Shown: piece after piece, positions 1,527 through 44,358 of the stretch
How the letters are laid out: every line of letters starts with the position of its first letter
Position numbering within the stretch: position 1 is the stretch's first letter
Origin: Pseudogymnoascus verrucosus
Lineage: Eukaryota
Assembly (NCBI GenBank): GCA_001662655.1
Contig: KV460233.1
Length of the DNA stretch: 64,000 bases
Strand: one strand, 5' to 3'
Program-made: the position numbers and the translations under genes
Notes under the pieces: generated by a model
Told to the model about the DNA's origin: nothing
Seen by the model: only the letters and a program-made list of their open reading frames with translations
The model's database searches: none

Positions 1527-3231
1527 TCAATCCTCATCCATGCTCTCCCACCCCTGCTCACCATCCTTCTTTCCCCCCTCCCCCTCCTCCTCCTCCTCAT
1601 CACTACTCTCCTCCTCATCCGCATTAACCCCCACCAACCTCTCCTTGACCTCCCCCTCCACCGGCGCCATACGATGCGCAAACGCCTTGCGCACCGCAGC
1701 ATTCGTGCTCGTATCCCAGATATGCACGCTCCCCTTGCTTCCCGCGACAGCGAGGCGGAACCCGACCTCCTCGTCCGGCGCGAAGACGGTGGAGAAGACT
1801 TTGCCGACTTCGAGGTTGCGACTCACTACCATGGTAGGGCCGGAGGCTTGGATGTTCCACAGTTTCACGGTGCGGTCTGTAGACCCTGTGGCCATGAAGC
1901 CGGGGATCACGGGGTTGATATCGAAAGCTGACACGGACTCGTCGTGTGCGTGCAGCGTCCAGACGGGCTTGGTTTTCGAGGGGTCCGTAGGCGCGGCCCG
2001 CACGTCGTGGTAGTGGATCACCCCCGCCTCGGTGGAGATGTAGAAGTAATTCCCATCATGAGGATCCCACCTCACGGTCTCGACATCGCTCTCTACGCCC
2101 CATCGAGGGACGGTCGCGTCGGGGGCTCGCATGTCTGCCGCTACGACGGTGCGGTCGTAGGATCCGGAGAGGAGGATGGTGGATTCCTTCGGGTGCCAGG
2201 CGAGTGTGCATACCTTGTCCGTGTGGTGCGCGTAGGACTTCGCGCAGGAGGTGGTGTACAGGTCCCATAGCTTGACTGTCTTGTCTGCGGAGGAGGAGGC
2301 GAGGAGGTTGCGGTGGTGACGGTTCGCGGCGAGGGAGAGGACGGCGTCGACATGGTAGTCTGCGTTGGGCTTGTTGGACTTCTTGCGCTTTTTCTTCTTC
2401 TGCGTGCCGTCGGCCGGAGGGGCGCCGGTGTCGTCGAGTCCGCCCTGCCCGAGGATCGCGTTGGGGTACATGCAATCCACCGTGTCGAGGTCCCAGATTT
2501 CAATGTCCGGCTCGAAAGTACCGACGGCGACGAAGTTGGCGCGGGCGTCGCGGGCGGCGGAGGTTTTGCCAACGGGGAGGTCGAGCCATTCGAGGCAGAG
2601 GGGGATGGCGGGGAGCATGATGTCGTGGTGGACGTAGAGGTTATCTGCTGAGTCTTCGTAGACGTATACCTCGAGGTGGGCGACCTCGTCTTCCACCTTG
2701 GCGGCGAGGACCATGTTGTCTGTGGCGAGGATCTGGAGCTCTTCGCGGTCTTCGTCGTCCTCGTCGTTCTCTTTCATTGTGATGTACGGGTCGTCGGCGT
2801 TGGATTCGTGGTAGGCGAGGGACTTGACGTTGCCGAACATGCCCATTCCCTCCCCTTCAGTGTCTTTGGCGACGTCGGAGTCGTAGTGCTCTAGGTCGTA
2901 TTCGGCGAGGTCATCGTCTTCGTCTCTGCGGATTGTTAGAATCCCTAATCCCGTATATTGTAAAACCACCCCACCACCAAATAACTCACCCCTTCGATTT
3001 CACCTTCGCGCCACCAGTCCCATCCTCAATATCCGAGTCCGAATCACTCTCTCCCTCACCCCCAGCCCTCGCGGCTTCCTCAGCCTCTTCTAAATCCTCC
3101 TGCGCGTCATCGAGCTGCAATTTCGCCAGCTTGGCGATCCTATCGAACTCCGCCTCGTCGAACTCGTATTTCGTGGGGAACGGCGCCGCGAAGCCCCGCG
3201 GCACCCACGCCGTCGCTGTGACCATAGACAT
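1527..3231 (-). CDS. PWP1: Periodic tryptophan protein 1 (WD40 ribosome biogenesis factor); exons 3231-2990 and 2925-1527
   Basis: N-term 'MVTATAWVPRGFAAPFP', acidic tract, 'LEVYVYED..NLYVHHDIMLPAIPLCLEWLD', several WD40 repeats; GTGAGT..CTAAC..CAG intron joins the two ORFs in frame. Confidence 0.93.
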
Positions 3232-3556
3232 CTTCGGTTATGCTAACGAAGTTGTCTTAAAGGTTGTTTGGGGGGGGGACAGCTGTTCGCTCGGTGAGTG
3301 AGGGGAACTTTTTTCTCACTGTTACGATTATTTGGAAATCTTATACGCTAGTGTTATCTAATCTTAGCGCGGATTTATTTTGCGGTTGGTCCGTGCGGGT
3401 GTCGTCCTGGTGGTGGAGACGACGACGCGACGGTATATTTTGACGGCTGGCCTTGCTGGATTTACACTCACGAAGCTCACCCTACGAGCTACGCAAGACA
3501 GCACCGCGCCTTCCACTCGTTTTCTTCCTTGCCTTGCCTTGCATAGTTACCCGATC

Positions 3557-6500
3557 ATGGCAGGAGAAGATGGCTTCCAAAGCCCCAAGAGGCGGAAGAT
3601 AGACTTCAACCCCCTCCGCAACGATGACCGCTTCGCCATCCCCTCCCGCCCAACCTCACGCTCCCAATCCCTCGCCCCTCCGCGCTCACAATCCCAAGCC
3701 CCCTCCCGCTCGCAAAGCCGCTTCGGCCCCTCCTCCTCCCGCGCCTCAACACCTCGCGGACAATCCCAATACCCTGGAACCCCAAAGCAGCATGAATTCG
3801 ACGGCCCCGAACCCGCCGTCGACATCGAGGACTCGAACGCCCTCGACCGCGACTGGTACGCCGGCGACGAGAGCGGCCACGTGTTCGGCGACGAAATGCA
3901 CAATCCCTTCGGCTCGTACGATACCTCGTGGGAGGAGCGACAGAAGGAGGCTGCGCTGGTGGAGAAGAAGACTGCGAAGCGGGTTACGGCGCGGGCGGCG
4001 CAGAAGCAGCGGGATGTGGATGCGTGGGAGACGAATCGGATGTTGACGTCTGGGGTGGCGCAGCGGAGGGATTTCGGGGACGATTTTGAGGACGATGAGG
4101 AGCAGACGAGGGTGCATTTGTTGATTCATGATCTCAGGCCGCCGTTTTTGGATGGGAGAACGGTGTTTACGAAGCAGGTTGATCCGGTGCCGGCGATTAG
4201 GGATAATCAGAGCGATATGGCGGTGTTTAGTAGGAAGGGGAGCAGGGTTGTCAAAGAGAGGAGACAGCAGAAGGAGAGGCAGAAGCAGGCGCAGGAGGCG
4301 ACGAATATGGCCGGCACGGCGTTGGGGAATCTGATGGGGGTTAAGGAGGATGAGGGGGATAGTGCGGCGCCGGTGCCTGGGGAGGAGGGGGGGGGGAAGG
4401 GGGATAGCAAGTTTGCGGAGCATATGGCGAAGAAGAGTGAGGGGGCGAGTAACTTTAGTCAGAGCAAGACGCTGAGGGAGCAGAGGGAGTATTTGCCAGC
4501 GTTTGCGGTGAGGGAGGATCTGCTGAGGGTTATTAGGGATAATCAGGTTGTTATTGTGGTGGGTGAGACGGGGTCGGGGAAGACGACGCAGTTGACTCAG
4601 TTCCTTTATGAGGATGGGTATGGGAAGAGGGGGATGATTGGGTGCACGCAGCCGCGGCGTGTGGCGGCGATGAGTGTGGCGAAGCGGGTGAGCGAGGAGA
4701 TGGAGTGTAAGCTTGGCAGCACGGTTGGGTATGCGATCCGTTTTGAGGATTGCACGAGCAAGGAGACGGTTATCAAGTATATGACGGACGGTGTCTTGCT
4801 GCGCGAGTCTCTCAATGAGCCGGATCTCGACAGGTATTCGTGCGTCATCATGGACGAGGCCCACGAGAGGGCTCTCAACACCGATGTGCTCATGGGCCTT
4901 TTCAAGAAGGTTCTGGCGCGCCGACGAGACTTGAAGTTGATCGTCACATCGGCTACTATGAACTCGAAGCGCTTCTCGGACTTTTATGGTGGAGCGCCGG
5001 AATTTTTCATCCCTGGCCGAACGTTTCCTGTGGATGTCATGTTCCATCGCTCTCCGGTCGAGGATTACGTCGACCAGGCTGTGCAACAAGTTCTCGCTAT
5101 CCATGTTTCTATGGGCGCAGGCGATATCTTGGTGTTCATGACTGGACAAGAGGATATCGAGTGCACCTGTGAACTTATCCAGGACCGTTTGAACGCGCTC
5201 AATGACCCTCCTAAGCTTAGCATTCTACCGATTTACAGTCAAATGCCGGCAGATCTGCAGGCCAAGATTTTCGACAGAGCAGCGCCAGGTGTGAGGAAGG
5301 TCATTGTTGCGACCAATATCGCCGAGACGAGTTTGACAGTCGACGGTATCATGTACGTGGTGGACGCTGGATATTCCAAGCTCAAAGTGTATAACCCGCG
5401 AATGGGCATGGATACCCTTCAGATCACGCCCATATCGCAAGCCAACGCATCTCAACGATCCGGGCGCGCAGGTCGTACTGGCCCAGGAAAGGCATTCCGC
5501 CTCTTCACCGAAGCCGCATACAAAGACGAGTTGTACATCCAGACCATTCCCGAAATCCAGCGCACGAACCTCAGTAACACCGTTCTCCTCCTCAAATCCC
5601 TCGGCGTCAAAGACTTGCTCGATTTCGACTTCATGGACCCGCCACCACAGGATACCATTACCACATCACTCTTCGACCTATGGGCCCTCGGCGCGCTGAA
5701 CAACATCGGCGACCTCACCGACGTCGGCCTAAAGATGACACCCTTCCCCATGGACCCCTCCCTCGCCAAACTCCTCATCACATCCGAAGAATACGGCTGC
5801 AGCGAAGAAATGCTCACCATAGTCTCCATGCTCTCCGTCCCCTCGATTTTCTACCGCCCCAAAGAGCGACAAGAAGAATCCGACGCCGCGCGCGAGAAGT
5901 TCTTCGTCCCCGAATCCGACCACCTCACCTACCTGCACGTGTACTCGCAGTGGAAGAGCAACGGCTACAGCGACGCGTGGTGCACGCGGCACTTCCTGCA
6001 TCCGAAGTCGCTGCGTCGCGCGAAGGAGATTAGGGAGCAGATCGGGGATATTATGAAGATGCAGAAGATGACGATGGTGAGCTGTGGCACGGATTGGGAT
6101 GTTATCCGCAAGTGTATTTGCTCGGGGTATTATCATCAGGCTGCGAAGGTGAAGGGGATTGGGGAGTATGTGAATTTGCGTACCAGTGTGGCGATTCAGT
6201 TGCATCCGACGAGCGCGCTGTATGGGCTGGGGTACTTGCCGGATTATGTGGTGTATCACGAGCTCATCTTGACGTCGAAGGAGTACATGTCTACCGTGAC
6301 GTCTGTGGATCCGAAGTGGCTGGCTGAGCTTGGGGGGGTCTTCTACAGCGTGAAGGAGAAGGGGTACTCGGCACGTGAGAAGAGGGTGACGGAGGTGGAG
6401 TTTAATCGCAAGATGGAGATTGAGACGCAGATGGCGGAGGATAAGAAGAATGAGGAGGAGAGGTTGGAGAGGGAGAAGGGGAGGGGCGAAGCGCAGAAGG

Positions 6501-6580
6501 AGGGGGTGGTGGTGAAGAAGGTTGCGCAGAGGGGGGCGGTGAGGAGGCCGGTGGTGAAGAGGAGTGGGAGGGGGTTCTAG
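3557..6580 (+). CDS. PRP16: Pre-mRNA splicing DEAH-box helicase Prp16, intronless, divergent from PWP1
   Basis: [35 protein letters not shown] motifs; N-terminal 'ALDRDWY','[10 protein letters not shown]','[11 protein letters not shown]' typical of Prp16; first ATG at 3557. Confidence 0.93.
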
Positions 6581-7430
6581 GGAGGGGAGCTGGGAGGACA
6601 GATGTACATAGTTGGGGATGGGGTTGTTAGAAAATTTACATCCCGCTTGCCTCATGCTTGTTTCGACCAGAAAGGGCAAGGCCGAGGAGTAAGCAATGTG
6701 AGTGGCTAAAAAGGCCATTGGCCGACCGGTAAGCAAGGGTGTTCGGTATTCGGCCTTAGGCAGCAGTGTCTGTCTGCTCTAGTAATAACATTTCAAATCT
6801 GAGAGACTTCCGTCGGACTGACATGTATAACAGTATGGCCAGAAATGGGATTGTTTAATGGGCGCCCTTGTTTTATTACTCGATTTGTTTGATTGCTTCA
6901 TATGATTCGTACCCCAGACAAGGTGCTAACGGTAGCGGTAACGGTAGTGCCTCGGGGCCGTGGATCTGCATAGCCCCGAATCAAGGTCCCAGAGATAATT
7001 CGTAGGTTCGCATTATCTGGGTTTCCGGGCAGGTGATGTGGCATGCATACATGTAACATTAGTAGATGCGCGATTCCAAAACAGGCATTGTTTACTATTG
7101 CTACCAGGTGCTCGGTTGGTTTTGTTGGGGTTATGACGCTCCCACAATCCCGTGCGTCTGGGTCGAAAAAGCCTTGTGCAAACACCTGCATGATAGGCGA
7201 CGACCTGTGCGCCTTCCGTCGTCTATCATTCCGCTCGGACGTTCCATTTCGCTCGGACGGCAGCATTTTCGAATGACTTAGCCGCTTGGGGTCTTGTCTT
7301 GGGCTGGACCCCGGCTTCCCAAGAGGCACGGAATACGATTGCCGCATTGCCTTTCGCACGATGCAGATATCCTGAGTCTATGTAGATTATTGTATCAAAT
7401 AGGTAGTAGCTGGACTAGGATTGACATCTA

Positions 7431-7710
7431 GTGCACGTACTGTAGGTCTGGCTCGTTGCGAACCACCGCGGTAAGTCAGTCACCGCCCACACGGCGGTCG
7501 TCGCGCCACACGGCGGTCGTCGCGCCACACGACGCATCTCACGATGAACCGTCGCTGGCAAGATCCATGCTGATCACAAACTGTGCACGTACTGTAGGTC
7601 TGGCTCGTTGCGAACCACCGCGGTAAGTCACCGCCCACACGGCGGTCGTCGCGCCACACGACGCATTCACGATGAACCGTCGCTGGCAAGATCCATGCTG
7701 ATCACAAACT
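7431..7710. repeat. Near-identical tandem duplication (152 bp + 128 bp) with nested 19-bp and 4-bp micro-duplications
   Basis: Units 7431-7582 and 7583-7710 both run GTGCACGTACTGTAGGTCTGG...GATCCATGCTGATCACAAACT. Confidence 0.9.
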
Positions 7711-7890
7711 GTACAGTCGCTCACACGATGATGCATGCTGGCCCTGCACCATTAACCAAGTAGTATATATATATATCTTTCCCTCCTTCTGCGTTTTAAT
7801 CAAGTACTCAAGCAATTCAAACACCTTACACTATAAGACTTGGGCATTCTGACAAACTTTGACCTGCTCTCATCTTTATCACGAACTACA

Positions 7891-8237
7891 ATGTCTTCGA
7901 CGGACGCTGTAAAAGGGTCTGACCCTCAGAATATCAGGTAGAACTTCGTTTCATTCGTTACTCTATCTCCCTTCCCAAATGTCCTACTATACAAGACAAG
8001 ATTCGTTGAACCTTTTACAGCATTGAATTTGCATAAACTAACGTCTACTTGGATAGTGCTCGACCATATGAGAGCAAATCAGCTATCGGCATCATGGTCG
8101 CCAACGGAAAATCGACAAAGGAAAAGACGCTGAAGACAAGCCAGGCCCGTCTTGAAGAGTGCCTGTCTTCGCCAGACCAGCCATTCTCTGGCTATACTAT
8201 GCGACCATACGTGGTGCCGCGTAATGATAAGAAATGA
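7891..8237 (+). CDS. 75-aa hypothetical microprotein, copy A (exons 7891-7937, 8057-8237)
   Basis: ATG, AG|GTAG donor, CTAAC..TAG acceptor give an open frame; gap-free alignment to the paralogue at 43740-43422 with identical exon lengths. Confidence 0.75.
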
Positions 8238-10791
8238 CATGCCAAGCAGCGCCAAGAAGGTGAGAACATAGCTTCCGCGGCTTTCTAACATTGCTAACAA
8301 AGGGCACAAGAGATATCCAGAGAACGAATACATGGAACACCCAACTCATTGCCGCATTTTTTAGAAACATTTTTAGAACTTAGAAATAAAACTGTATTTT
8401 TACTACGTACACGCTATCTCGGTGAGTAGCTTAGGGGTCGTATATGCTTTTCAAAAAACAAAAAAACTGCCACGTGAGTAAGTTCGGCGCCATGAGACCT
8501 GATTAAACCGTAAGCTTCGTTGCAAACATGAAGTGGACGAAGGGCGGGCGGGTGATACCCGCACCCCATATTCGAGGTAAACCAATAAAAAGCGTTTAAA
8601 TTCATGTCATATTAAAATCTTGCGAGGCACCAATAGATAAGTAGGATCTTATATGGATCCCTTGCTTACCGGTTTGCAAAATCTCTAGGTATAATGTACA
8701 AAGGTCTACTTGTGGCTTTCGCCGTCGTCTACTTAAAAGAGCTAGCATTTCTTTGAAGCCGTACTATACAAACGAAGCGGCAAGTCAGCAGGCGTACCAT
8801 CAAGTATACGGTACAACGAAACTCCCGATTAACTACTGCTGCGCCATATAAGGTCTAATTGCCTCACAATATTTTGCCGTGCTCCGGGATTGACACCTAC
8901 ATACAGTAGAAGCTTGAAATCTTATAAATAAAAGTTATTTTTATAAAACTAACAGCGCGATATTCAGCAATAGGTAATAGGCAGTAGGCAGTCCACGCCA
9001 TAAAGGCCCATAATTCCAGCTTTTTACTTCTAGTAATCTCCGTGAAAGACCTACATATGGCTAATGGGGTCCTACCAGCATCGCCCAGACATGGTGGTCA
9101 AACCAGTCACGACCGGAATAGGAAATGGGCATCTTACACCGCCGTTCATTACGGACAACCCCACAACACTCTCGGTGAGAGATTTCGGATGCCCATACGA
9201 TATATCAAAGCGCGTGAGCGTGACTGTCGCGGTCGTGGCGACGAGGTGTTGGGCGAATCAGTTGAGAAGTTGGGCCCGACGGCTCGAAGATTCCAACACT
9301 GCATATATCATTTTATCTCGCATGCACGTCCGGATGAGGGGTGACGATGGCAGAGCGTAGTAGCGGGGTTGGCGTTCTGGTAAGGAAGGAGATTGTGGAT
9401 CTCTGACGTAGGAATCCCTATTAGAAACGTTTAAAATATGGGCTCGAGGCTACCGAAAATGACAGCGAAGGCCTGTTAGAAAGCCTATCAGCCGTCGCCA
9501 AACAAGCGAGGAATATGCTAGGTTTCTCAGCCTTGTTCCCTAATGAGAACTGCCAATTACACCTCACAAATCCACACACGAAACAAGTGTTATCCGTTGG
9601 CCTTAGATTATTGGTGCGGTCGTATCTTATTCGACGTCGTTTAGATTACCCCCTTGTTGAATCAGCGAAGCAGGCAAAAGTGGAGCGCCTAACTTTGACA
9701 GGGCAAAGCTGGTCTATATTTTACAACACCCGTCCACACCGGCCAGTCGCTCGACACTTACAAGGTATCAGACGGGAAGAATTGCGATGCTGATAAGACA
9801 CAGATGCTTGGTTTCCATCACGCACCTCCGTAAACATTCGCCACCTCAACATTCATTCATTTATTCCTTCATTTATCGGATATACTCTCTAGAAGAAGCA
9901 AGGGCCAGCTGAAAAGCTGCATGGATGCCTTTCGAGAAGGTCACGCCAAATCTAAGACACGTCTACCGCCTCCAACGCCCACAGATCCGCAGAAATCACA
10001 ACTACAGCTCCTCCTAGAAAGAAGTGCCCTGCGCTATCGAACCCTCTCCCTACAACATCCCGATTTTGGGGGATTCATTCATCTCGGCATAAAAGGCGGC
10101 CTCGACAACCCATGTAAGGCACATTTATACCCTGCATCGTCCCATCATCCGTATCATCAACAAATGCGGGGCCGAAGAAAAACAGCCCCTCCTCTCTGAC
10201 CCGGTGCCATTCATCCCGACCTCGGAAGCGGTCTCACCCCAGCTAGCGCTATCCACGCCATTTCTTCGGCGAATTCAGAGGTACGGGACTGAAGATAAAA
10301 ATAATGGATGTGGCCCGCCTACGGAGTACTCAATTCCCACCCCCAGCTCCCCCTTATCCCCGTGCACAATCACCCCCTGAAAACTGAAAATACCCCACAC
10401 GGTTACGAAATGTACGCGCGAGAGCTAAAAAGCGGTGTGCCTACGACTCTTCTCTCCTCTCCTCTCCTCTCTAAGCAATTGCCATTCATCCCAGCTTCAG
10501 AGGTAGCTTGTAGTACAGAGTCCAGCCTAAGCCGTTTCGAAGACATTTCCGTATGCGCAAAACCCCGCGTTCCGGCGTCTGACATCACTCTGTAGTCGCA
10601 TAAATCTTCCCATGCCCCATAACCTAGTGATCTGGGCCCACGTTGTGGTCTGGTCTGGCAGTACAGCCACCACTAAAACGGGTCGGTGCCATTCCCGAAT
10701 GCCAATGCAGCTTTGAAGCTTCATTTCTAATTTCAGATTTTGTCTCCTAATCGTAGTCGGAAGCAGAGTGCGTCTGTGAGAACGGGTGGAA

Positions 10792-11281
10792 TGTTACGGC
10801 GGGTTTCCGCAACCCCTGCACCGACACATCGATTAATAGGGTAATCTAGGTTGTGGTGTTTTGAACGCGGATTACAGGGATATGGATTCGCTTGGAAGAA
10901 CGCTCCTGGGAGAAGTCTCCCAGAAGAGCTCTCCCAGAAGCGATAGGCTCCTAGAAGAGTTCTCCCAGAAGAGTTAGTCTTCTAGAAGAACTCTCCCAGG
11001 AGGGGAACTCTCCTAGAAGAGAATTCACGTGATGGATATATTGGATATATGGATATGTTATTATATCCATCGATATCCCTATACCCACTAGGCACGACGC
11101 CACTATATAAGTAGATAGTTAGTTCTTAGATAGGAGCTTCGTGCTCAACTCAATATAGTATTTGTTATATACTGTAACGTGTTTTACGAAAGCCTTTGTG
11201 TCTGATCCCCTGCCTCCCCTGTTAAGTAAACCAACGCAACGAAACCTCTGTAAGTCTTATAGTTTAAGACCCAGCGTTACA
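10792..11281. mobile_element. Solo LTR of an LTR retrotransposon (490 bp)
   Basis: TGTTACG...CGTTACA termini, 5-bp TSD TGGAA on both sides (10787-10791, 11282-11286), internal CTCCCAGAAG repeats and TATATAAG. Confidence 0.88.
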
Positions 11282-11414
11282 TGGAAGCGAAGTGCGTCTG
11301 CAACTACTAAATATTACAAGTGCCTTTACATAGTAAATTATACGCAACGAGACTTAAGGTTATAAAAATTCAAAAATGTAATTAAATTATTTTATTTAAA
11401 ATATATATAAACTA

Positions 11415-11694
11415 ACGTATTTCACATGCGAGTGGCCACCCTAAGCGAGTAGCCATAGAAAACGCAAAAACGTGTAGACTAAGAATAAACATATTATATT
11501 GCAACAATGCAAGCTTAAAGCGCTTTAAAAGAAGATAGAACACTTTTAGCTATCAAGGCTATTAAACAAGGCTACATTTAGAATGTTCAGAGTGCTGCAG
11601 AAACGTACGATATCCCTTAAACAACACTATAGCGACAAATTCAAGGAACGGCTTCTTAACGTGACTATACCCCTAACTTACGTAAGTTGACTCC
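11415..11694 (+). pseudogene. 5' fragment of a Fot1/pogo-type DNA transposon with stop-riddled HTH region
   Basis: TA|ACGT... terminus; from ATG 11507 translates MQA*SALKEDRTLLAIKAIKQGYI*NVQSAAETYDIP*TTL*RQIQGTAS*RDYTPNLRKLT, the Fot1-type N-terminal HTH pattern. Confidence 0.8.
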
Positions 11695-13290
11695 ACCGTC
11701 AAAGCTCCCGGTGGCAAAGGCACCTCTCCTACCTATTATAGGAAAATAAAACAACTACAATGCTTCTTCTATATTCTCTTTACACTACTATCGCTATATT
11801 TAGCTCTCTATTACTCACACATATTATCATGAACTATTTATCTCGATTTTTTAGGCGCTGGATATTGTAAGTACTTTAGGAAGAAACTATAGAGATTAAC
11901 TTCCACATCTTATTATAAGTTATAGCTAATCAAAAAACTTTAATCATAAGGAGAAATCCAATCGCATGCGAAAACGAGTCACAAATACAAAAAGAACCAG
12001 TGCAGCCGCCTGGATCATCTAGGCCTGCAAGAGTTGGTGACTTGAATTGGAAAGAAGCAAGTCACTACCTCGCGCAGTCTCAGGGATTTCATAAGATGAT
12101 ACAATGGAGTGAAGATGTAATTCTATTAGTTGATGCACAGGGGCTCACCTGTGGCTACGGCAACTTGCGCTGCAGGGCAAGGCGACAGACAGGATGAGAC
12201 AAGATAAGAAAGGCGAGAAGGACGAGATAGGACGACAAATATGACAAGACGTGGTCGGATGGTGGAGGAAGTGGGCTGTTTTGGTTCCATATAATCCCGG
12301 CTCCTCGTGTTGAGCTACGATCACACGACATTTCATATACACATTCATTACAATTGCTTACAATTTTGCAGGAAAGACATGGTTTCAAAGGACAATTGGC
12401 TGGCAGGGACAGGAGCAGATAGACTGGCGCCCATTGAGGAATTGGAATTTGCAATTAGTTAGCTGATTCAAAAGGTGGCAATGGGTTGGGCACTACAACA
12501 AATATAATACATGTTTCACTTAAAGAGCTTTCAGAAAAGCATACGCCATGCCGTCCAGAAGTATAAGGGGGGATGTGCATCCAGAAGTGCTTATAGAATC
12601 TGTATTGGAAGTAAATGCATTCAATCAGCAGGGTGAGTGAGGTGAACAAGCTGAGGTTGAGGGACGACTTGATTCTGTGGCTCCGAGATTCCGCTTGTAT
12701 GGTATGAACCACAACCCCTGGCCGTTCTTTAGCTTCGGATAAACAGCCATGTGGGGTGGCGCACGACCCTTCTTCCCCTTTTCGCCTGCAACCTTATTCT
12801 GTAACAACGCGGGGCAGCCACAATCCCCATTCCGCTATTCCCCGCGCAAATGATGAGAAGTCTATGGTGCCAGCTGCACCAGAAGCACTACGCCAAGGTC
12901 TAATAAATGTGCCAGCGCTGAGACCAACTCTATTTTGCACGATGTCTCTCTACCCCAGAAATGTGTATTCGGCCCGATCGGCATTTGACAAAATATCCTC
13001 GTTCGTGGGCATTCTTGTGCTCAGTCATCTTCAAATGATCGGCGAAAAACCTTCATCTCAAGGTAGGTGTCATAACTAGAAGAACCGAAATAGGCCCTAT
13101 TGTTTGTGGTCTTCTAAATGACCGAGATAGGTCATTCTGTTCAAGAAGCACGAAATATTTCCGAGTAGAGCTTGTCTGGATCCTGGTACGCTGCTCTATA
13201 TAAGGATGGCTGCTCATATGAGAATAATGGCCTTCGAAATCGGAGGTAGCCATCTCGCCTTGTCTATTGAGCTCTCCTGCTATTGCAAGC

Positions 13291-17164: not shown

Positions 17165-18052
17165 CACTCTCGGTGAGTGGTTTGGGGGTCGTATATGCCC
17201 TTTTAAAAATGCGATATGTGAGTAAACTTGGTCTGCGCCGAGGGCACAATCACCCCTTCCTGATACAGTACAGCCTTGTTGACCCACCCGAACACAGTGA
17301 AGCCTCGTTAACCCCACCCTAAATACAGTTCAGCCTTGTTAAAACCCCTTCCCGAATGCAATGCAGCTTTGAAGCTTCATTTCTAATTTCAGATTTTGTC
17401 TCCTACCTCTTTCCACCTTTGTCCCTGTAACATTCATATGCCCAATGGCAAAACAAAGGACGTGTTGCCGTTGACCCGACGTGACATGGCCCGGATGCGT
17501 CAATTCCCCTTTCCCATATAGATCCGTTCACAACACACACTGCTGCCTGCAGTACTAACATTCACATAATTCACAAGTACAGTCCTAAAAACGCATCCTG
17601 TGCCACCGACTCTCCTCACCATGTCCCCATTTCTCAGATCTCATTTGTCTTAGTATCCCATTAGCGAGTGTCTTATCTAGCATGCGTGACGGGGGACCGA
17701 CGGATTCAAACCGCCGGTCTGAAGATTTTCCAACCCGGAACGTGGCCTGGGTTAGAAAACCAGGCCGAACCGCCCAGGCCGGTGTGGTCCCCTAACGGTT
17801 TCTTGGCAGACCGTTGGGGGACCGTGGGTTTTTACTTTTAGACCAGACCGTGGACTGCGTTGAAGATTTGGAACCGGACCCCCCCATGGTCCGGTCTGGG
17901 GTCGGTCCCCCGATGGGTCGGTTCCCCGTCACGCAGGCTAGACTTATCCACCCATCTATGCAAGGCAGGCTTACAACCCGCATCATCTAAGTCATTCACT
18001 AAATTCACAAGTTACATAGCAGAAGAAAGCGGCTCACATGCTTAATTCCTAT
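17165..18052. repeat. Longest copy of a degenerate dispersed non-coding repeat also found at ~8416-8487, 10692-10749 and ~28299-28950
   Basis: Shared blocks such as GCAGCTTTGAAGCTTCATTTCTAATTTCAGATTTTGTCTCCTA, TAACATTCACATAATTCAC(A/C)AGTACAGTCC, CTCGGTGAGT...GGGGTCGTATATGC; all in direct orientation. Confidence 0.8.
17678..17940. mobile_element. hAT-type MITE (263 bp)
   Basis: 24-bp TIR TAGC(A/C)TGCGTGACGGGG(G/A)ACCGAC, 8-bp TSD GTCTTATC/GACTTATC; absent from the homologous site in the 28.8 kb repeat copy. Confidence 0.85.
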
Positions 18053-18291
18053 CCTACCCTAGCTTCCCTCTCATCCGCATATAACTCTCTTGCGGTGAGG
18101 TTGTAGTTGGGATCAGATTATATTCGTGAATCGTGCCTACTTTTCTCAACACGCGAGATCCTAACATTTATGCGCTACCATGCGTCCCCTAGACTCCTCC
18201 CTATGCGATACTTTCACATATGTAAGAGGCAGGAGGTCACCTTCCAAGATGCACAAAGAGAATTTGTGATGAATAATCCCCCCCAACAATA

Positions 18292-28020: not shown

Positions 28021-29625
28021 CTGGTCTGGGAAGAGGTGATCAACGCAGCTCGGCGCATCTACGACAGCCTGCATCACCATTCCACATCAATCACACGATT
28101 GCCATTATCATTACAGCCCCAAAGGTGTATATATCGCTCCGTTAACCACACCTACCAGACTTGATGAGCCTCAAATTTTCCAACTTCCAATTTCCGTCTC
28201 TCACCCAACATATACATCTACCCCTATAACCTCCATCCACCTTCATCATTCACCACACCTAACATAGACGTGATGCTGACCCTCCGCGTCAAAAAGACGC
28301 AGCTTAGGTGCTTCATTTCTAATTTCCGAGTTATTTTCTCCTCTTAGCTCTACACATTTACCCTCATAACATGCATACATACACCCACATTATTCATGGC
28401 CAAAAAATGACATGTTGCCGCCGACCCCTCCCCGACGTGACGTGGCCTAGATGCTTCAATTCACCCTTACCCTTTTGACTCGCCGAGATACACATTTCCT
28501 CACTACATCATCCTGATATCCGCACTATCCTCACCATTCATCCACAGGTACCTACCAAAAAAAGGTAGGGTGTGCCGCCAACTTTCCCTAGCGAGTCCTC
28601 CCGCCTTATTTCCCCCCTTCCCTCAGCTACGCCTCATACTTATTTACCGCCTAGACACCACACACTACTCAGCTTCCAAAGCCGCCTCGCCCATCGACCC
28701 GCGCCACATCCGCCGCCTACGGCATTAACATTCACATAATTCACCAGTACAGTCCCAAATCCGCATCATGTGCCGTCAACTCTCACCGAGGCCCTACCTC
28801 CTAGGGTTCATTTGTCTCAGTACTCCATTAGACAGTGTCTCACCCGCCTGTCTATGCAAGGTAGGTTTACAAACCGCGTCATCCAAGGTATTCACTGAAT
28901 TTACAAGTTACACAGCAGCCGAAGAAAGCGGCTTAGACCTCAATTCCTATCTCCCTTTTCCTTTTTTACCAGTATGCACAATCAGGCCCCGAGAATATAC
29001 ACGCTCACGGGATGTACAGTACAGTCAACAGCCGAGCAGCGTTATGTCGTTGACATCTGTCCTCTCCGAGCCATTGTCATTTCATCTCGACTTCGGAAGC
29101 AGTTTCGACCAGCCTGCTAGGTGTTGAAGGTATATATGTATGGTGCCGTCGACTCCCCATGGGATGCGGTTCTCATCCCCCTCCTCCGAGCTACGCCCTA
29201 TACACATCTACTACCCCCAACACCCCATCATTTCACAGCATTCACATCACACAAGTGCAGTTAAACAAAAAGTATAGTGTGCCACAGGCTCCCCCCCGGA
29301 TTTTTCCCGAGAGGGTCCTCAAAAAAATGAGGGTATCCATTTCTATCTAAGACAACATCCCCTCCTTCCCCGCCCCTCCCCCTTCCAAAAAAATTACAGC
29401 CTCCTTGACGGGCTGACCAAATGGGTGCCAGCCAGACTGAACAATCAAAACAAATAAGTTATCCCAGATAACGCCTTCCTTTCCTTCCTTTCCTTCTGTA
29501 ACCCTTTTTTTCCGGTTTAACCCGGATGTGTGTGTGGGCTGGAATTGGTTTTGGTGTACACAGGCATGCTGTAGCAGTAGCTCAGTCGTGCCTTCCTCCT
29601 CCCCCCATGTTCATCCATCCCCCAT

Positions 29626-42582: not shown

Positions 42583-43421
42583 TGCGGCTTAGAGCTCATG
42601 TCCAGAGCTGCCCAGAGCTGCCTTCCCGTTGGGAGCTATATAACGCTAATCCCAAGCAGGAGATACCTTTTTTTCTGTAAAAAAAGGTATCTCCTACTTA
42701 GGATTAGCTTAGGATTAGCTCTAAATTGACACCTTGGCTCGATCGCTCGAAAGCAACGAAGTTGCAACTGCAATTAATGGACCCTTACAATCCCCATTCT
42801 CGATAAGGCGTCGTAGCACATCATTGTTTATTCGTCGTGGCAGGCACGGCTCCTTCGTCCGACGTATGCTCGTCTTATGGTGTAGAACGACGTATCACCT
42901 GCTGGCGTTGATTCTTAGGCCTGCCACTGTCTATCCACTAGATTACGTTCCTGGTCGCCACGCGGGCGGATGCTGATGAGCAAGGAAAAAATCGTGGTGT
43001 TCGTGAAGTAAATGTCTTCGCTACCCGCTTCTTGATCGTCATATGTCAAGGGTGATCTATATGTCTTTGGTGATAATGGTATCTCTATATGACATAGGCC
43101 TTCTGAAGATACAACTGTCTACCTCGAGCCTACAGTAAGTGCAATGGTGCTACTGGGAGGGAATACGTCCCGAATCACTAGAAACTGAGAAATCTCGTAG
43201 ATTTTTACAGATTGTGGATGGTGAAACACGTTTTTATTTATGAGTTCTAAAAATCTATCTAAAACGCAGAAATAAGCCGAATTTTTTATATATAATTCTC
43301 TGTGTTCGTCCTGTAGCTTTTGTTAACATTATTTGAAAGTTGAGGATTGTGCTGCGATCGTACTTTCTCACCTTCTTTTTTAGATTCTCGCCTCCCCGCC
43401 TTCCCAACATCGTCTAGGATA

Positions 43422-43740
43422 TTATTTTGTGGTGGTGCTTCTCTCAATGTATGTTCGAGCAGTATAGCTAGCCAATGGGTGGTCTGGTGAAGAAAACCAT
43501 TCTTCGACTTGGGCTTGATATCTCTTCAACTTTTCGTCCTTGGTCGTGGTGTTGTTGGCGATGTTGATGCCGATGCCCGACGTGCTCTGGTATGGCCTAT
43601 CACTAGCCACGCAGATGTTAGCTGCCATGAACCCTGCTTTATATCGTAGAGCTTTCAGGAAAGGAGGGAAAAATGGATGAAACTGGGTCCTACCTAATAT
43701 ACCGCGTGCTAGACCCTTTAACGGCCTCTGTCGAAGACAT
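43422..43740 (-). CDS. 75-aa hypothetical microprotein, copy B (exons 43740-43694, 43602-43422)
   Basis: Same 47+181 nt exon structure and phase as 7891-8237; 39/75 identical residues by hand alignment. Confidence 0.75.
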
Positions 43741-44358
43741 TGCAGTGAGTGGTAATTGTAAAAGTAGTTGGGTTGAAGTTCGTCCAAGTCTCCCGCTGAA
43801 AGGTGCTTATGCCGATTGAATCCATGATCAAAAGGCGGGCGGGGAGAAAGATTTTATATTTGAAGGGAAAACTATGTGGGATGTGAGTATGCCACTCCGC
43901 CTCGTCTTAAACTATGTCTTCGTTACTACTGCCAACAAGTACCAGTGTCAATCCCATAGGTTAATGATGTACGCTAATGCTACACACGGCCATGTTATAC
44001 GGGTACTAATTAGTACTGTATGTATATACTCGTAATGGATAGGTCGGCAGGAAGTGGGTTGGACTAGGGGGCAGGAGTTGCAATAGAAATGTGGTTGATT
44101 TGGGCAGATTAGAGATAGTGGAGTTCAGTTGAAGAGCATGGGAACTATGCACTGGTTAATATGTATGGAGTAGTGTAGTATGTGGTGTGTTATGTGGTCA
44201 AGTAGGTGCTATTGTATGGTATTACCTTACTCTATTGGCTGTCCTGTTACTTACTTTTTATTTTGTTGGGTGAAGTTAAAGAGGCCGGGCTCAATCGTGC
44301 ACACTTCCCCATCCTGTACCCATATTAATGTGATACATTAAATTTGGAAGATACACGC

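What the first reader, a model, noticed from the sequence alone, without database searches (positions are those of the whole stretch)
7891..8237. Unannotated 75-aa microprotein family: two diverged paralogues 35 kb apart
Seen: splicing gives MSSTDAVKGSDPQNISARPYESKSAIGIMVANGKSTKEKTLKTSQARLEECLSSPDQPFSGYTMRPYVVPRNDKK here and MSSTEAVKGSSTRYISDRPYQSTSGIGINIANNTTTKDEKLKRYQAQVEEWFSSPDHPLASYTARTYIERSTTTK at 43740-43422 (minus). Both have 47+181 nt exons, the same intron phase, no gaps and 39/75 identities by hand, while the introns differ in length and sequence. Inference: purifying selection on a real small intracellular protein (RPY.S.S.IGI..AN, EE..SSPD.P...YT.R.Y). I recognise no family for it.
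Basis: partly seen in the sequence, partly recalled or inferred. Interest (0 to 1): 0.75.

Follow-up and report, generated by a model that had tools for sequence, protein, structure and literature searches.

The report
Genus-restricted small protein gene family
Two real but uncharacterised 75-residue protein genes of a small family found only in the fungal genus Pseudogymnoascus; one copy is already annotated as a hypothetical protein, the other was missed by the genome annotation.

Summary
Both two-exon ORFs (47+181 nt, phase-2 intron, 75 aa) are present, with 39/75 identical residues and no indels.

Selection on the reading frame:
- dN/dS between the copies is 0.32 (Fisher p 1.6e-4); the two other sense frames give 1.4 and 2.8.
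- Random substitution at the observed divergence keeps the ORF open in only about 3% of trials.

What was wrong or incomplete in the finding:
- The family is not wholly unannotated. Copy B is letter for letter VE01_06511 of Pseudogymnoascus verrucosus.
- Copy A lies in an unannotated gap between VE01_06500 and VE01_06501. Its orthologue is annotated in another isolate.
- Palmer et al. 2018 already list the family as orthogroup orth7031, omega 0.335.
- The genome has at least four paralogues.

Family and protein:
- All 12 organisms named among the members are Pseudogymnoascus isolates.
- No Pfam, PDB or Rfam match was found.
- The protein is hydrophilic and mostly disordered, with one amphipathic helix followed by a conserved [W/C][L/F]SSP[D/N]xP motif. 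Longer paralogues repeat this module.

Function is unknown. I infer an intracellular binding module. No RNA or protein evidence could be obtained.

The parts
7761..7890 (+). Copy A promoter-proximal region and 5'UTR (TATA-like run about 7766-7777), homologous to copy B
   Evidence: 79/119 aligned positions identical, z 11.3 against shuffles. Homology is lost further upstream, z -0.2.
7891..7937 (+). Copy A coding exon 1 (15 codons + 2 nt)
   Evidence: 36/47 nt identical to copy B with no gaps.
7938..8056 (+). Copy A intron 1, 119 nt, phase 2, GTAGAA...ACTAAC...TAG
   Evidence: Aligns to the copy B intron at 64/91 with 28 gap positions. An unspliced reading hits TAG at once.
8057..8237 (+). Copy A coding exon 2 (1 nt + 59 codons + TGA)
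   Evidence: 98% identical to KFZ20320.1 of another Pseudogymnoascus isolate. Not annotated in P. verrucosus.
8260..8310 (+). Copy A putative 3'UTR intron (GTGAGA...CTAAC...AG), 51 nt, starting 23 nt after the stop
   Evidence: Splice signals conserved in both copies. Inferred; there is no RNA evidence.
8311..8410 (+). Copy A distal 3'UTR with a conserved T-rich block and AATAAA (8385-8390); homology ends about 8410
43741..43870 (-). Copy B promoter-proximal region and 5'UTR
43694..43740 (-). Copy B coding exon 1
   Evidence: The spliced product equals P0002 = VE01_06511.
43603..43693 (-). Copy B intron 1, 91 nt, phase 2, GTAGGA...GCTAAC...TAG. A second in-frame GT lies 9 nt upstream (GTATAT).
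   Evidence: The 72-aa model of P0001 uses the equivalent upstream junction.
43422..43602 (-). Copy B coding exon 2 with TAA
43311..43371 (-). Copy B putative 3'UTR intron, 61 nt, starting 50 nt after the stop
   Evidence: Inferred.
43230..43310 (-). Copy B distal 3'UTR with the conserved block and AATAAA (43233-43238)

Best explanation
These are two intact paralogous genes of a small-protein family that, as far as the searched collections show, is confined to the genus Pseudogymnoascus (Leotiomycetes).

Shown:
- Each gene is a self-contained unit of about 650 bp: TATA-like element and 5'UTR, 47-nt exon, phase-2 intron, 181-nt exon, then a 3'UTR with conserved splice signals of a short intron and an AATAAA.
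- The family grew by duplication of this whole unit. There are three copies within about 100 kb of one scaffold and a fourth elsewhere.
- In some members the family also grew by repeating an internal module 2-3 times.
- The reading frame is under moderate purifying selection (omega about 0.3).
- The product is about 8 kDa, hydrophilic (GRAVY about -0.9), basic and rich in Ser, Thr and Lys. It has no hydrophobic leader and no conserved cysteines.
- It is predicted to be mostly disordered, apart from one amphipathic helix (residues about 37-53) followed by the conserved motif [W/C][L/F]SSP[D/N]xP.

Inferred (about 0.3 on its own):
- The helix-plus-SSP motif is the functional unit. The protein acts inside the cell as a small disordered adaptor or regulator that binds a partner through this module.
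- The Ser-Pro site is a candidate for phospho-regulation.

The biological process it serves is unknown.
For: Coding constraint:
- omega 0.32, p 1.6e-4, against 1.4 and 2.8 in the shifted frames.
- There is no indel in 225 coding nt, against 11 indel events in the aligned non-coding parts.
- The ORF survives neutral simulation in only about 3% of trials.
- Antisense frames over exon 2 carry stops in both copies.
- Palmer et al. 2018, supplementary file 3, list orth7031 (VE01_06478, VE01_06511, VE04_00544, VE00_05930) with M0 omega 0.335 and M1/M2 and M7/M8 p = 1 (one table row seen).

Family:
- A profile search of 1.84 billion representatives gave 10 proteins at E<=1e-3.
- A word-indexed search gave 19 at E<=0.01. 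All 10 NCBI-named ones are Pseudogymnoascus; 2 come from JGI and 7 from Logan without an organism name.
- With cluster members, 12 named isolates are represented.
- The tree has five groups. Copy A pairs with P0001 (82/96). Copy B sits in a 95/93 clade with eight others, so the A/B split predates divergence of several isolates (26 rows, P0016 left out).
- The N-terminal MSST.AVKGS, the PY, IGI.VAN, the motif and a C-terminal Lys (often DKK) recur across groups.
- The module is repeated in P0005, P0009, P0012, P0015, P0025 and P0026.

Protein:
- AF2 mean pLDDT is 57. Residues 1-32 are below 50, and helix 37-53 lies in blocks averaging 82 and 72.
- pI 9.0-9.4, GRAVY -0.85 to -0.96.
- The P. verrucosus gene model of copy B came from funannotate run with poly(A) RNA-seq support (passages seen).
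Against: - I could obtain no transcript, junction or peptide evidence.
- The non-coding parts of the unit are about as similar (66-70%) as the exons (68-77%). Nucleotide similarity alone therefore does not single out the ORF.
- The codon-position skew alone is weak: 21, 19 and 34 differences, chi-square about 5.4 by my arithmetic.
- The 5' splice site of copy A (GTAGAA) departs from the usual fungal GTAAGT/GTATGT (consensus recalled).
- Both structure models are low-confidence: pLDDT 57 and 51.
- The binding-module idea rests only on conservation and repetition of the motif.
- Copy A and its orthologues have Cys where the others have Trp.
- Gene models of some relatives run on into a further exon (...ELSWN...), so the true C-terminus may vary.
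Confidence: 0.75

Rival explanations
1. The units are duplicated non-coding transcripts or regulatory DNA, and the 75-codon frame is an accident preserved by recent duplication.
For: UTRs, promoter-proximal DNA and the intron are as similar between copies as the exons. No expression data could be obtained.
Against: - omega is 0.32 in this frame only.
- The coding part has no indels and the frame is open, against a neutral expectation of about 3%.
- The same ORF, with the same start and end, occurs in five diverged groups from 12 named isolates.
- There is no Rfam match.
Confidence: 0.05
2. The proteins are precursors of ribosomally made, processed peptides (RiPP-like), with the repeated module as the core.
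For: Small size, lineage restriction, and 2-3 repeats of the module in longer members.
Against: - There is no hydrophobic signal peptide and no Lys-Arg sites flanking the module (read).
- The repeats diverge in sequence and spacing.
- The three P. verrucosus copies with known neighbours share no neighbour type: PRP16 helicase and GH81; a hypothetical protein and protoporphyrinogen oxidase; a hypothetical protein and an ABC transporter.
- VE01_06511 and VE01_06478 do not occur in the paper's P. verrucosus secondary-metabolite cluster table (file 12, searched).
Confidence: 0.05
3. They are hydrophilin or LEA-like protective disordered proteins, expressed under cold or desiccation stress in this psychrotolerant genus.
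For: Strong hydrophilicity and predicted disorder. Cold tolerance of the genus is stated in the papers listed.
Against: - Gly is only 3 of 75 in copy B (read), below the >6% of the hydrophilin definition (recalled).
- Conservation is concentrated in a specific motif rather than in composition.
Confidence: 0.1
4. They are fragments of a transposon or of a longer known gene.
For: There are dispersed copies on one scaffold. Other short dispersed repeats and a MITE-like insertion lie in the same window.
Against: - Homology ends sharply at about 650 bp.
- The two units share no terminal inverted or long direct repeats.
- No Pfam domain matches.
- There is no conserved longer ORF: the open frame of copy B that runs back through its intron is not open in copy A.
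- There is no excess of transitions as RIP would leave: 35 transitions against 38 transversions.
Confidence: 0.03

Closest known systems
VE01_06511 / XP_018129427.1 (UniRef100_A0A1B8GIQ6), hypothetical protein of Pseudogymnoascus verrucosus; orthogroup orth7031 / orth2197 of Palmer et al. 2018 (PMC5750222)
   Same: Copy B is identical to it over all 75 residues, with the same two-exon model. Copy A is a 52%-identical paralogue.
   Different: Copy A has no gene model in that annotation. Nothing is known about function.
KFZ20320.1 (V501_00193), Pseudogymnoascus sp. VKM F-4519
   Same: Orthologue of copy A, 98% identical over the 59 residues of exon 2.
   Different: Its model has 72 aa with an exon-1 junction three codons earlier.
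Taxonomically restricted (orphan) small-protein genes of fungi in general
   Same: Short, disordered, no detectable homologues outside one genus, moderate purifying selection, inconsistent annotation.
   Different: This one has a conserved intron position, at least five diverged subgroups, and a module that is also repeated within proteins. It is therefore not a very young or species-specific ORF.
Pfam DUF2406 (PF10295) and the Ish1 repeat (PF10281)
   Same: DUF2406 was the nearest named cluster by language-model features, score 0.84. One three-module member touches the Ish1 profile over 11 residues.
   Different: Neither is significant. 0 of 24 members hit DUF2406 at E<=1, and 1 of 24 hits Ish1 at E 0.12 with no stretch passing.

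Membership tests
Pseudogymnoascus small-protein family (orth7031 / VE01_06511 group) | Significant sequence similarity to the annotated members | tested here: met
   Copy B is 100% identical to P0002. Copy A exon 2 scores E 3e-30 to P0001. The window ORFs score 1e-39 and 8e-41 against the family HMM.
Pseudogymnoascus small-protein family (orth7031 / VE01_06511 group) | Conserved motifs (N-terminal MSST.AVKGS, PY, IGI.VAN, [W/C][L/F]SSP[D/N]xP, C-terminal Lys) | tested here: met
   Alignments. Copy A has Cys in place of Trp.
Pseudogymnoascus small-protein family (orth7031 / VE01_06511 group) | Same exon-intron structure in relatives | not testable with these tools
   No fungal genome DNA other than the window was available. 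The metagenome scan gave only a spurious bacterial locus.
Pfam DUF2406 (PF10295) | Match to the family HMM at its gathering score | tested here: not met
   0 of 24 family proteins match at E<=1.
Ish1 repeat (PF10281) | Match to the family HMM at its gathering score (26.6 bits) | tested here: not met
   1 of 24 (P0026) at 13.2 bits, E 0.12, with no stretch passing.
Fungal RiPP precursors of the ustiloxin / dikaritin type (features recalled) | N-terminal signal peptide, and repeated cores flanked by Kex2 (Lys-Arg) sites | tested here: not met
   Hydrophilic N-terminus and no KR flanking the module in the sequences. This was by inspection; no predictor was run.
Fungal RiPP precursors of the ustiloxin / dikaritin type (features recalled) | Adjacent tailoring enzymes (DUF3328/UstYa, tyrosinase etc.) | tested here: not met
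   None appears among the Pfam hits of the 14 window ORFs of at least 200 aa that I scanned, of the 19 listed. None appears among the annotated neighbours. The genes are not in the published SM-cluster table.
Hydrophilins (definition recalled: Gly >6%, high hydrophilicity) | Glycine above 6% | tested here: not met
   3 Gly in the 75 residues of P0002 (read). GRAVY of -0.96 does meet the hydrophilicity part.

The most novel reading that the evidence does not exclude
The family is a genus-specific invention, possibly born de novo in the Pseudogymnoascus lineage. Its roughly 35-residue helix-[W/C][L/F]SSP[D/N]xP unit would be a new protein-interaction module. The module multiplies both by duplication of a compact 650-bp transcription unit and by internal repetition. 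Its 3'UTR intron would be a conserved regulatory feature. It might serve a lineage-specific trait such as growth in the cold.
Probability: 0.12. Interest if true: 0.55.

Novelty: new member of a known kind. Interest (0 to 1): 0.3.

Why it matters
The finding adds one missed gene (copy A) to the P. verrucosus annotation. It also shows that a set of scattered 'hypothetical proteins' forms one coherent, selected, genus-restricted family with a recognisable module. Such families are raw material for studying how new small proteins arise and persist. The genus includes the bat white-nose pathogen, for which no annotated member turned up in my searches; unannotated copies there are not excluded. No function is known, so the immediate value is modest.

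Tried and rejected
- Whole genome: none is held for this window.
- RNA evidence: the look-up of sequencing runs listed no RNA holder. It gave one run of uncertain kind holding 0.08 of the words. Laying it on 3000-12000 gave a single 154-nt contig at 8293-8446 and no joints. This says nothing on expression or splicing.
- Metagenome scan with the family profile: 38 pattern matches and 1 confirmed locus (L001). That locus is a bacterial sugar-nucleotidyltransferase-like ORF with a chance EEWFSSPDH, so it is spurious.
- Pfam: no hit for exon 2 of copy A. Only sub-threshold, mutually inconsistent hits occur for 24 family proteins.
- PDB sequence search with the profile: 4 hits, all SMAD5 MH1 chains at E 0.47-0.6, not significant.
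- Rfam on 7400-8800: 0 matches at E<=1.
- ESM Atlas: for P0002 the best named cluster is DUF2406 at 0.84, a lead only. Structure rows rest on a model with pLDDT 0.47 and are not usable. For P0026 there was no usable hit.
- AF2 of the three-module member: mean pLDDT 51, no fold to search. I therefore ran no fold search on either model.
- Literature:
  - Six locus tags gave 0 papers.
  - Pseudogymnoascus combined with orphan or microprotein terms: none of the 15 papers listed, of 1,089 holding at least two of the six terms, contains the genus name.
  - The cold-stress proteomics paper PMC10703952 shows none of the family's accessions or tags in its one held supplement or in its main-text tables. 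Small proteins are easily missed there.
- Earlier notes of this scan: nothing.
- Terminal repeats around the units: none shared.

Full report
**Observation.**
- Copy A is 7891-7937 + 8057-8237 on the + strand, with a 119-nt intron (GTAGAA...ACTAAC...TAG).
- Copy B is 43740-43694 + 43602-43422 on the - strand, with a 91-nt intron (GTAGGA...GCTAAC...TAG).
- Both give 75 residues. The intron follows the second base of codon 16 in both.
- 39 of 75 residues and 154 of 228 nt are identical. Identical positions number 55, 57 and 42 of 76 at codon positions 1, 2 and 3.
- tblastn with three family proteins and an HMM search over all six frames find only these two copies in the window.

**Is it more than chance?**
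- Nei-Gojobori counts give Sd 28 of 51 synonymous sites and Nd 45 of 174 non-synonymous sites. That is dS 0.99, dN 0.32 and omega 0.32, with Fisher p 1.6e-4.
- The same calculation in the two shifted sense frames gives omega 1.4 and 2.8.
- Antisense frames over exon 2 contain stops in both copies.
- I applied the observed 73 differences at random with the observed transition share, 20,000 trials per copy. The ATG and open frame survive in 3.3% and 2.7% of trials, and at least 39 identical residues occur in 0.7%.
- The coding part has no indel. The aligned 5' region, intron and 3' region contain 11 internal indel events in about 430 nt by my count. That makes zero events in 225 nt a 0.3% outcome.
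- Against this, the non-coding parts of the unit are about as similar as the exons: 66% in the 5' region, 70% in the intron and 69% in the 3' region, against 77% and 68% in the exons.
- The case for coding therefore rests on the pattern of change and not on its amount. The codon-position skew alone is weak.

**Extent of the duplicated unit.**
- Homology runs from about 130 nt before the ATG (a TATA-like run) to about 180 nt past the stop. It stops sharply on both sides, with z about 0 beyond.
- The 3' part holds conserved signals of a short second intron. In A this is GTGAGA...CTAAC...AG at 8260-8310, 23 nt after the stop. In B it is 43371-43311, 50 nt after the stop.
- It also holds a nearly identical T-rich block ending in AATAAA.
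- Each copy is thus a complete small transcription unit of about 650 bp.
- The units share no terminal repeats. The substitutions show no transition excess, 35 against 38. I see no sign of a transposon or of RIP.

**Identity.**
- Searching with exon 2 of copy B returns a 75-residue protein identical to the spliced product. It is VE01_06511 / XP_018129427.1 of Pseudogymnoascus verrucosus, a 'hypothetical protein'.
- Exon 2 of copy A returns one protein, V501_00193 of Pseudogymnoascus sp. VKM F-4519. It is 98% identical and has 72 aa, with an exon-1 junction three codons earlier.
- Copy B has a second in-frame GT at exactly that earlier place. Copy A does not.
- The supplementary gene table of Palmer et al. 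2018 (PMC5750222, file 22; single rows seen) places six genes at a constant offset from the window's ORFs: VE01_06499, 06500, 06502, 06504, 06511 and 06512.
- In that table nothing is annotated between VE01_06500 (PRP16-like helicase, ending at window 6580) and VE01_06501 (GH81, starting at window 13290).
- Copy A is therefore a missed gene in this genome, and copy B is annotated.
- File 3 of the same paper lists orth7031 = VE01_06478, VE01_06511, VE04_00544 and VE00_05930. M0 omega is 0.335, and there is no signal of positive selection, with both p = 1. This is an independent estimate that agrees with mine.

**The family.**
- A profile of four sequences searched against 1.84 billion representatives found 10 proteins at E<=1e-3.
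- A profile of eleven found 19 proteins at E<=0.01 among 540 candidates of 36-151 residues. Ten have NCBI names, all Pseudogymnoascus. Two are from JGI and seven from Logan, without organism names.
- With cluster members, the named sources are 12 isolates of this genus and nothing else.
- No member from P. destructans appears in these searches or in orth7031. Copy A shows that such genes are easily left unannotated, so absence there is not established.
- P. verrucosus has at least four members:
  - copy A;
  - copy B;
  - VE01_06478, on the same scaffold about 62 kb from copy A;
  - VE01_10681, a 185-residue model whose C-terminal part is the family sequence.
- A maximum-likelihood tree (26 rows, P0016 left out) shows five groups. 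Copy A pairs with its VKM F-4519 orthologue (82/96). Copy B lies in a 95/93 clade with eight proteins. The A/B duplication is therefore older than the divergence of several isolates, and both lineages have been kept.
- The neighbours of the three mapped P. verrucosus copies have nothing in common. The genes are not in the paper's secondary-metabolite cluster table.

**The protein.**
- No member reaches a Pfam cut-off.
- The profile finds nothing significant in the PDB, and Rfam finds nothing in the DNA.
- The products are about 8.2-8.5 kDa, with pI 9.0-9.4 and GRAVY -0.85 to -0.96. They are rich in Ser, Thr and Lys, and cysteines are not conserved.
- The N-terminus is hydrophilic.
- AlphaFold2 with the 11-sequence alignment gives mean pLDDT 57. 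Residues 1-32 are below 50. One helix at 37-53 lies in blocks averaging 82 and 72, and a weaker one lies at 58-73.
- Conserved across groups are MSST.AVKGS, a PY, IGI.VAN, the helix, then [W/C][L/F]SSP[D/N]xP, and a C-terminal Lys, often DKK.
- In six longer members the helix-plus-motif module occurs two or three times. The three-module form also folds with low confidence, pLDDT 51.

**How it probably works.**
- Shown: a selected, genus-restricted small protein with one conserved, reiterated module and otherwise predicted disorder.
- Inferred: the module is a binding element and the protein is a small intracellular adaptor or regulator. The invariant Ser-Pro is a possible phosphorylation switch. 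I put this at about 0.3.
- A protective hydrophilin-like role (0.1) and a processed-peptide precursor (0.05) are the main functional rivals.
- A non-coding or transposon origin is unlikely (0.05 and 0.03).

**What is open.**
- No RNA or peptide evidence could be had.
- No fungal genome other than the window could be searched. Intron conservation, the range outside the annotated proteins, and the origin of the family are therefore untested.
- Some relatives' gene models continue past the DKK end, or from the motif, into a further exon (...ELSWN...). In the window a stop precedes the conserved downstream intron in both copies, so here that exon would be 3'UTR.

**Verdict.** This is a true observation and a largely correct inference. 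The family is already in the databases as hypothetical proteins and as a published orthogroup. It counts as a new, unannotated member of a known kind, of modest interest.

Noticed in passing
window 17360-18060 and 28300-28950: Two intergenic stretches share patchy 70-82% homology in three blocks. One lies between the GH81 and GH18 genes, the other between the sedolisin and Nab2-like genes. This may be another small duplicated unit or a regulatory element.
   Followed up: partly
window about 17725-17960: An insertion of about 230 nt, present only in the 17-kb copy of the pair above. It is bounded by imperfect inverted repeats and G/C-rich palindromic segments, and looks like a MITE.
   Followed up: no
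window 7431-7715: A tandem duplication of about 152 nt (84% identity) lies directly upstream of the homology boundary of copy A.
   Followed up: no
window 10689-10749 / 17346-17405; 10120-10181 / 41820-41759; 29063-29107 / 41225-41182; 8417-8456 / 17168-17209: Short dispersed repeats (82-97%) sit in the gene-poor stretches next to both copies. Their nature is unknown.
   Followed up: no
window 8260-8310 and 43311-43371: Conserved splice signals of a short intron lie in the 3'UTR of both copies. In some relatives' gene models the equivalent intron joins the coding region to a further exon.
   Followed up: partly
window 7906-7919 and 8008-8021: A 14-nt stretch of exon 1 of copy A is 93% complementary to a stretch inside the part of the intron that only copy A has. 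It could pair across the 5' splice site. Copy B has no counterpart.
   Followed up: no
window 43628-43425 (-): In copy B the exon-2 frame stays open back through the intron and has an ATG there. This explains the unspliced 68-aa JGI model P0003. That ATG and open frame are absent in copy A.
   Followed up: yes
window 8400-13290: About 5 kb has no annotated gene and no ORF over 122 codons (stop to stop), downstream of copy A. GC drops to 0.355 at 11001-12000.
   Followed up: no
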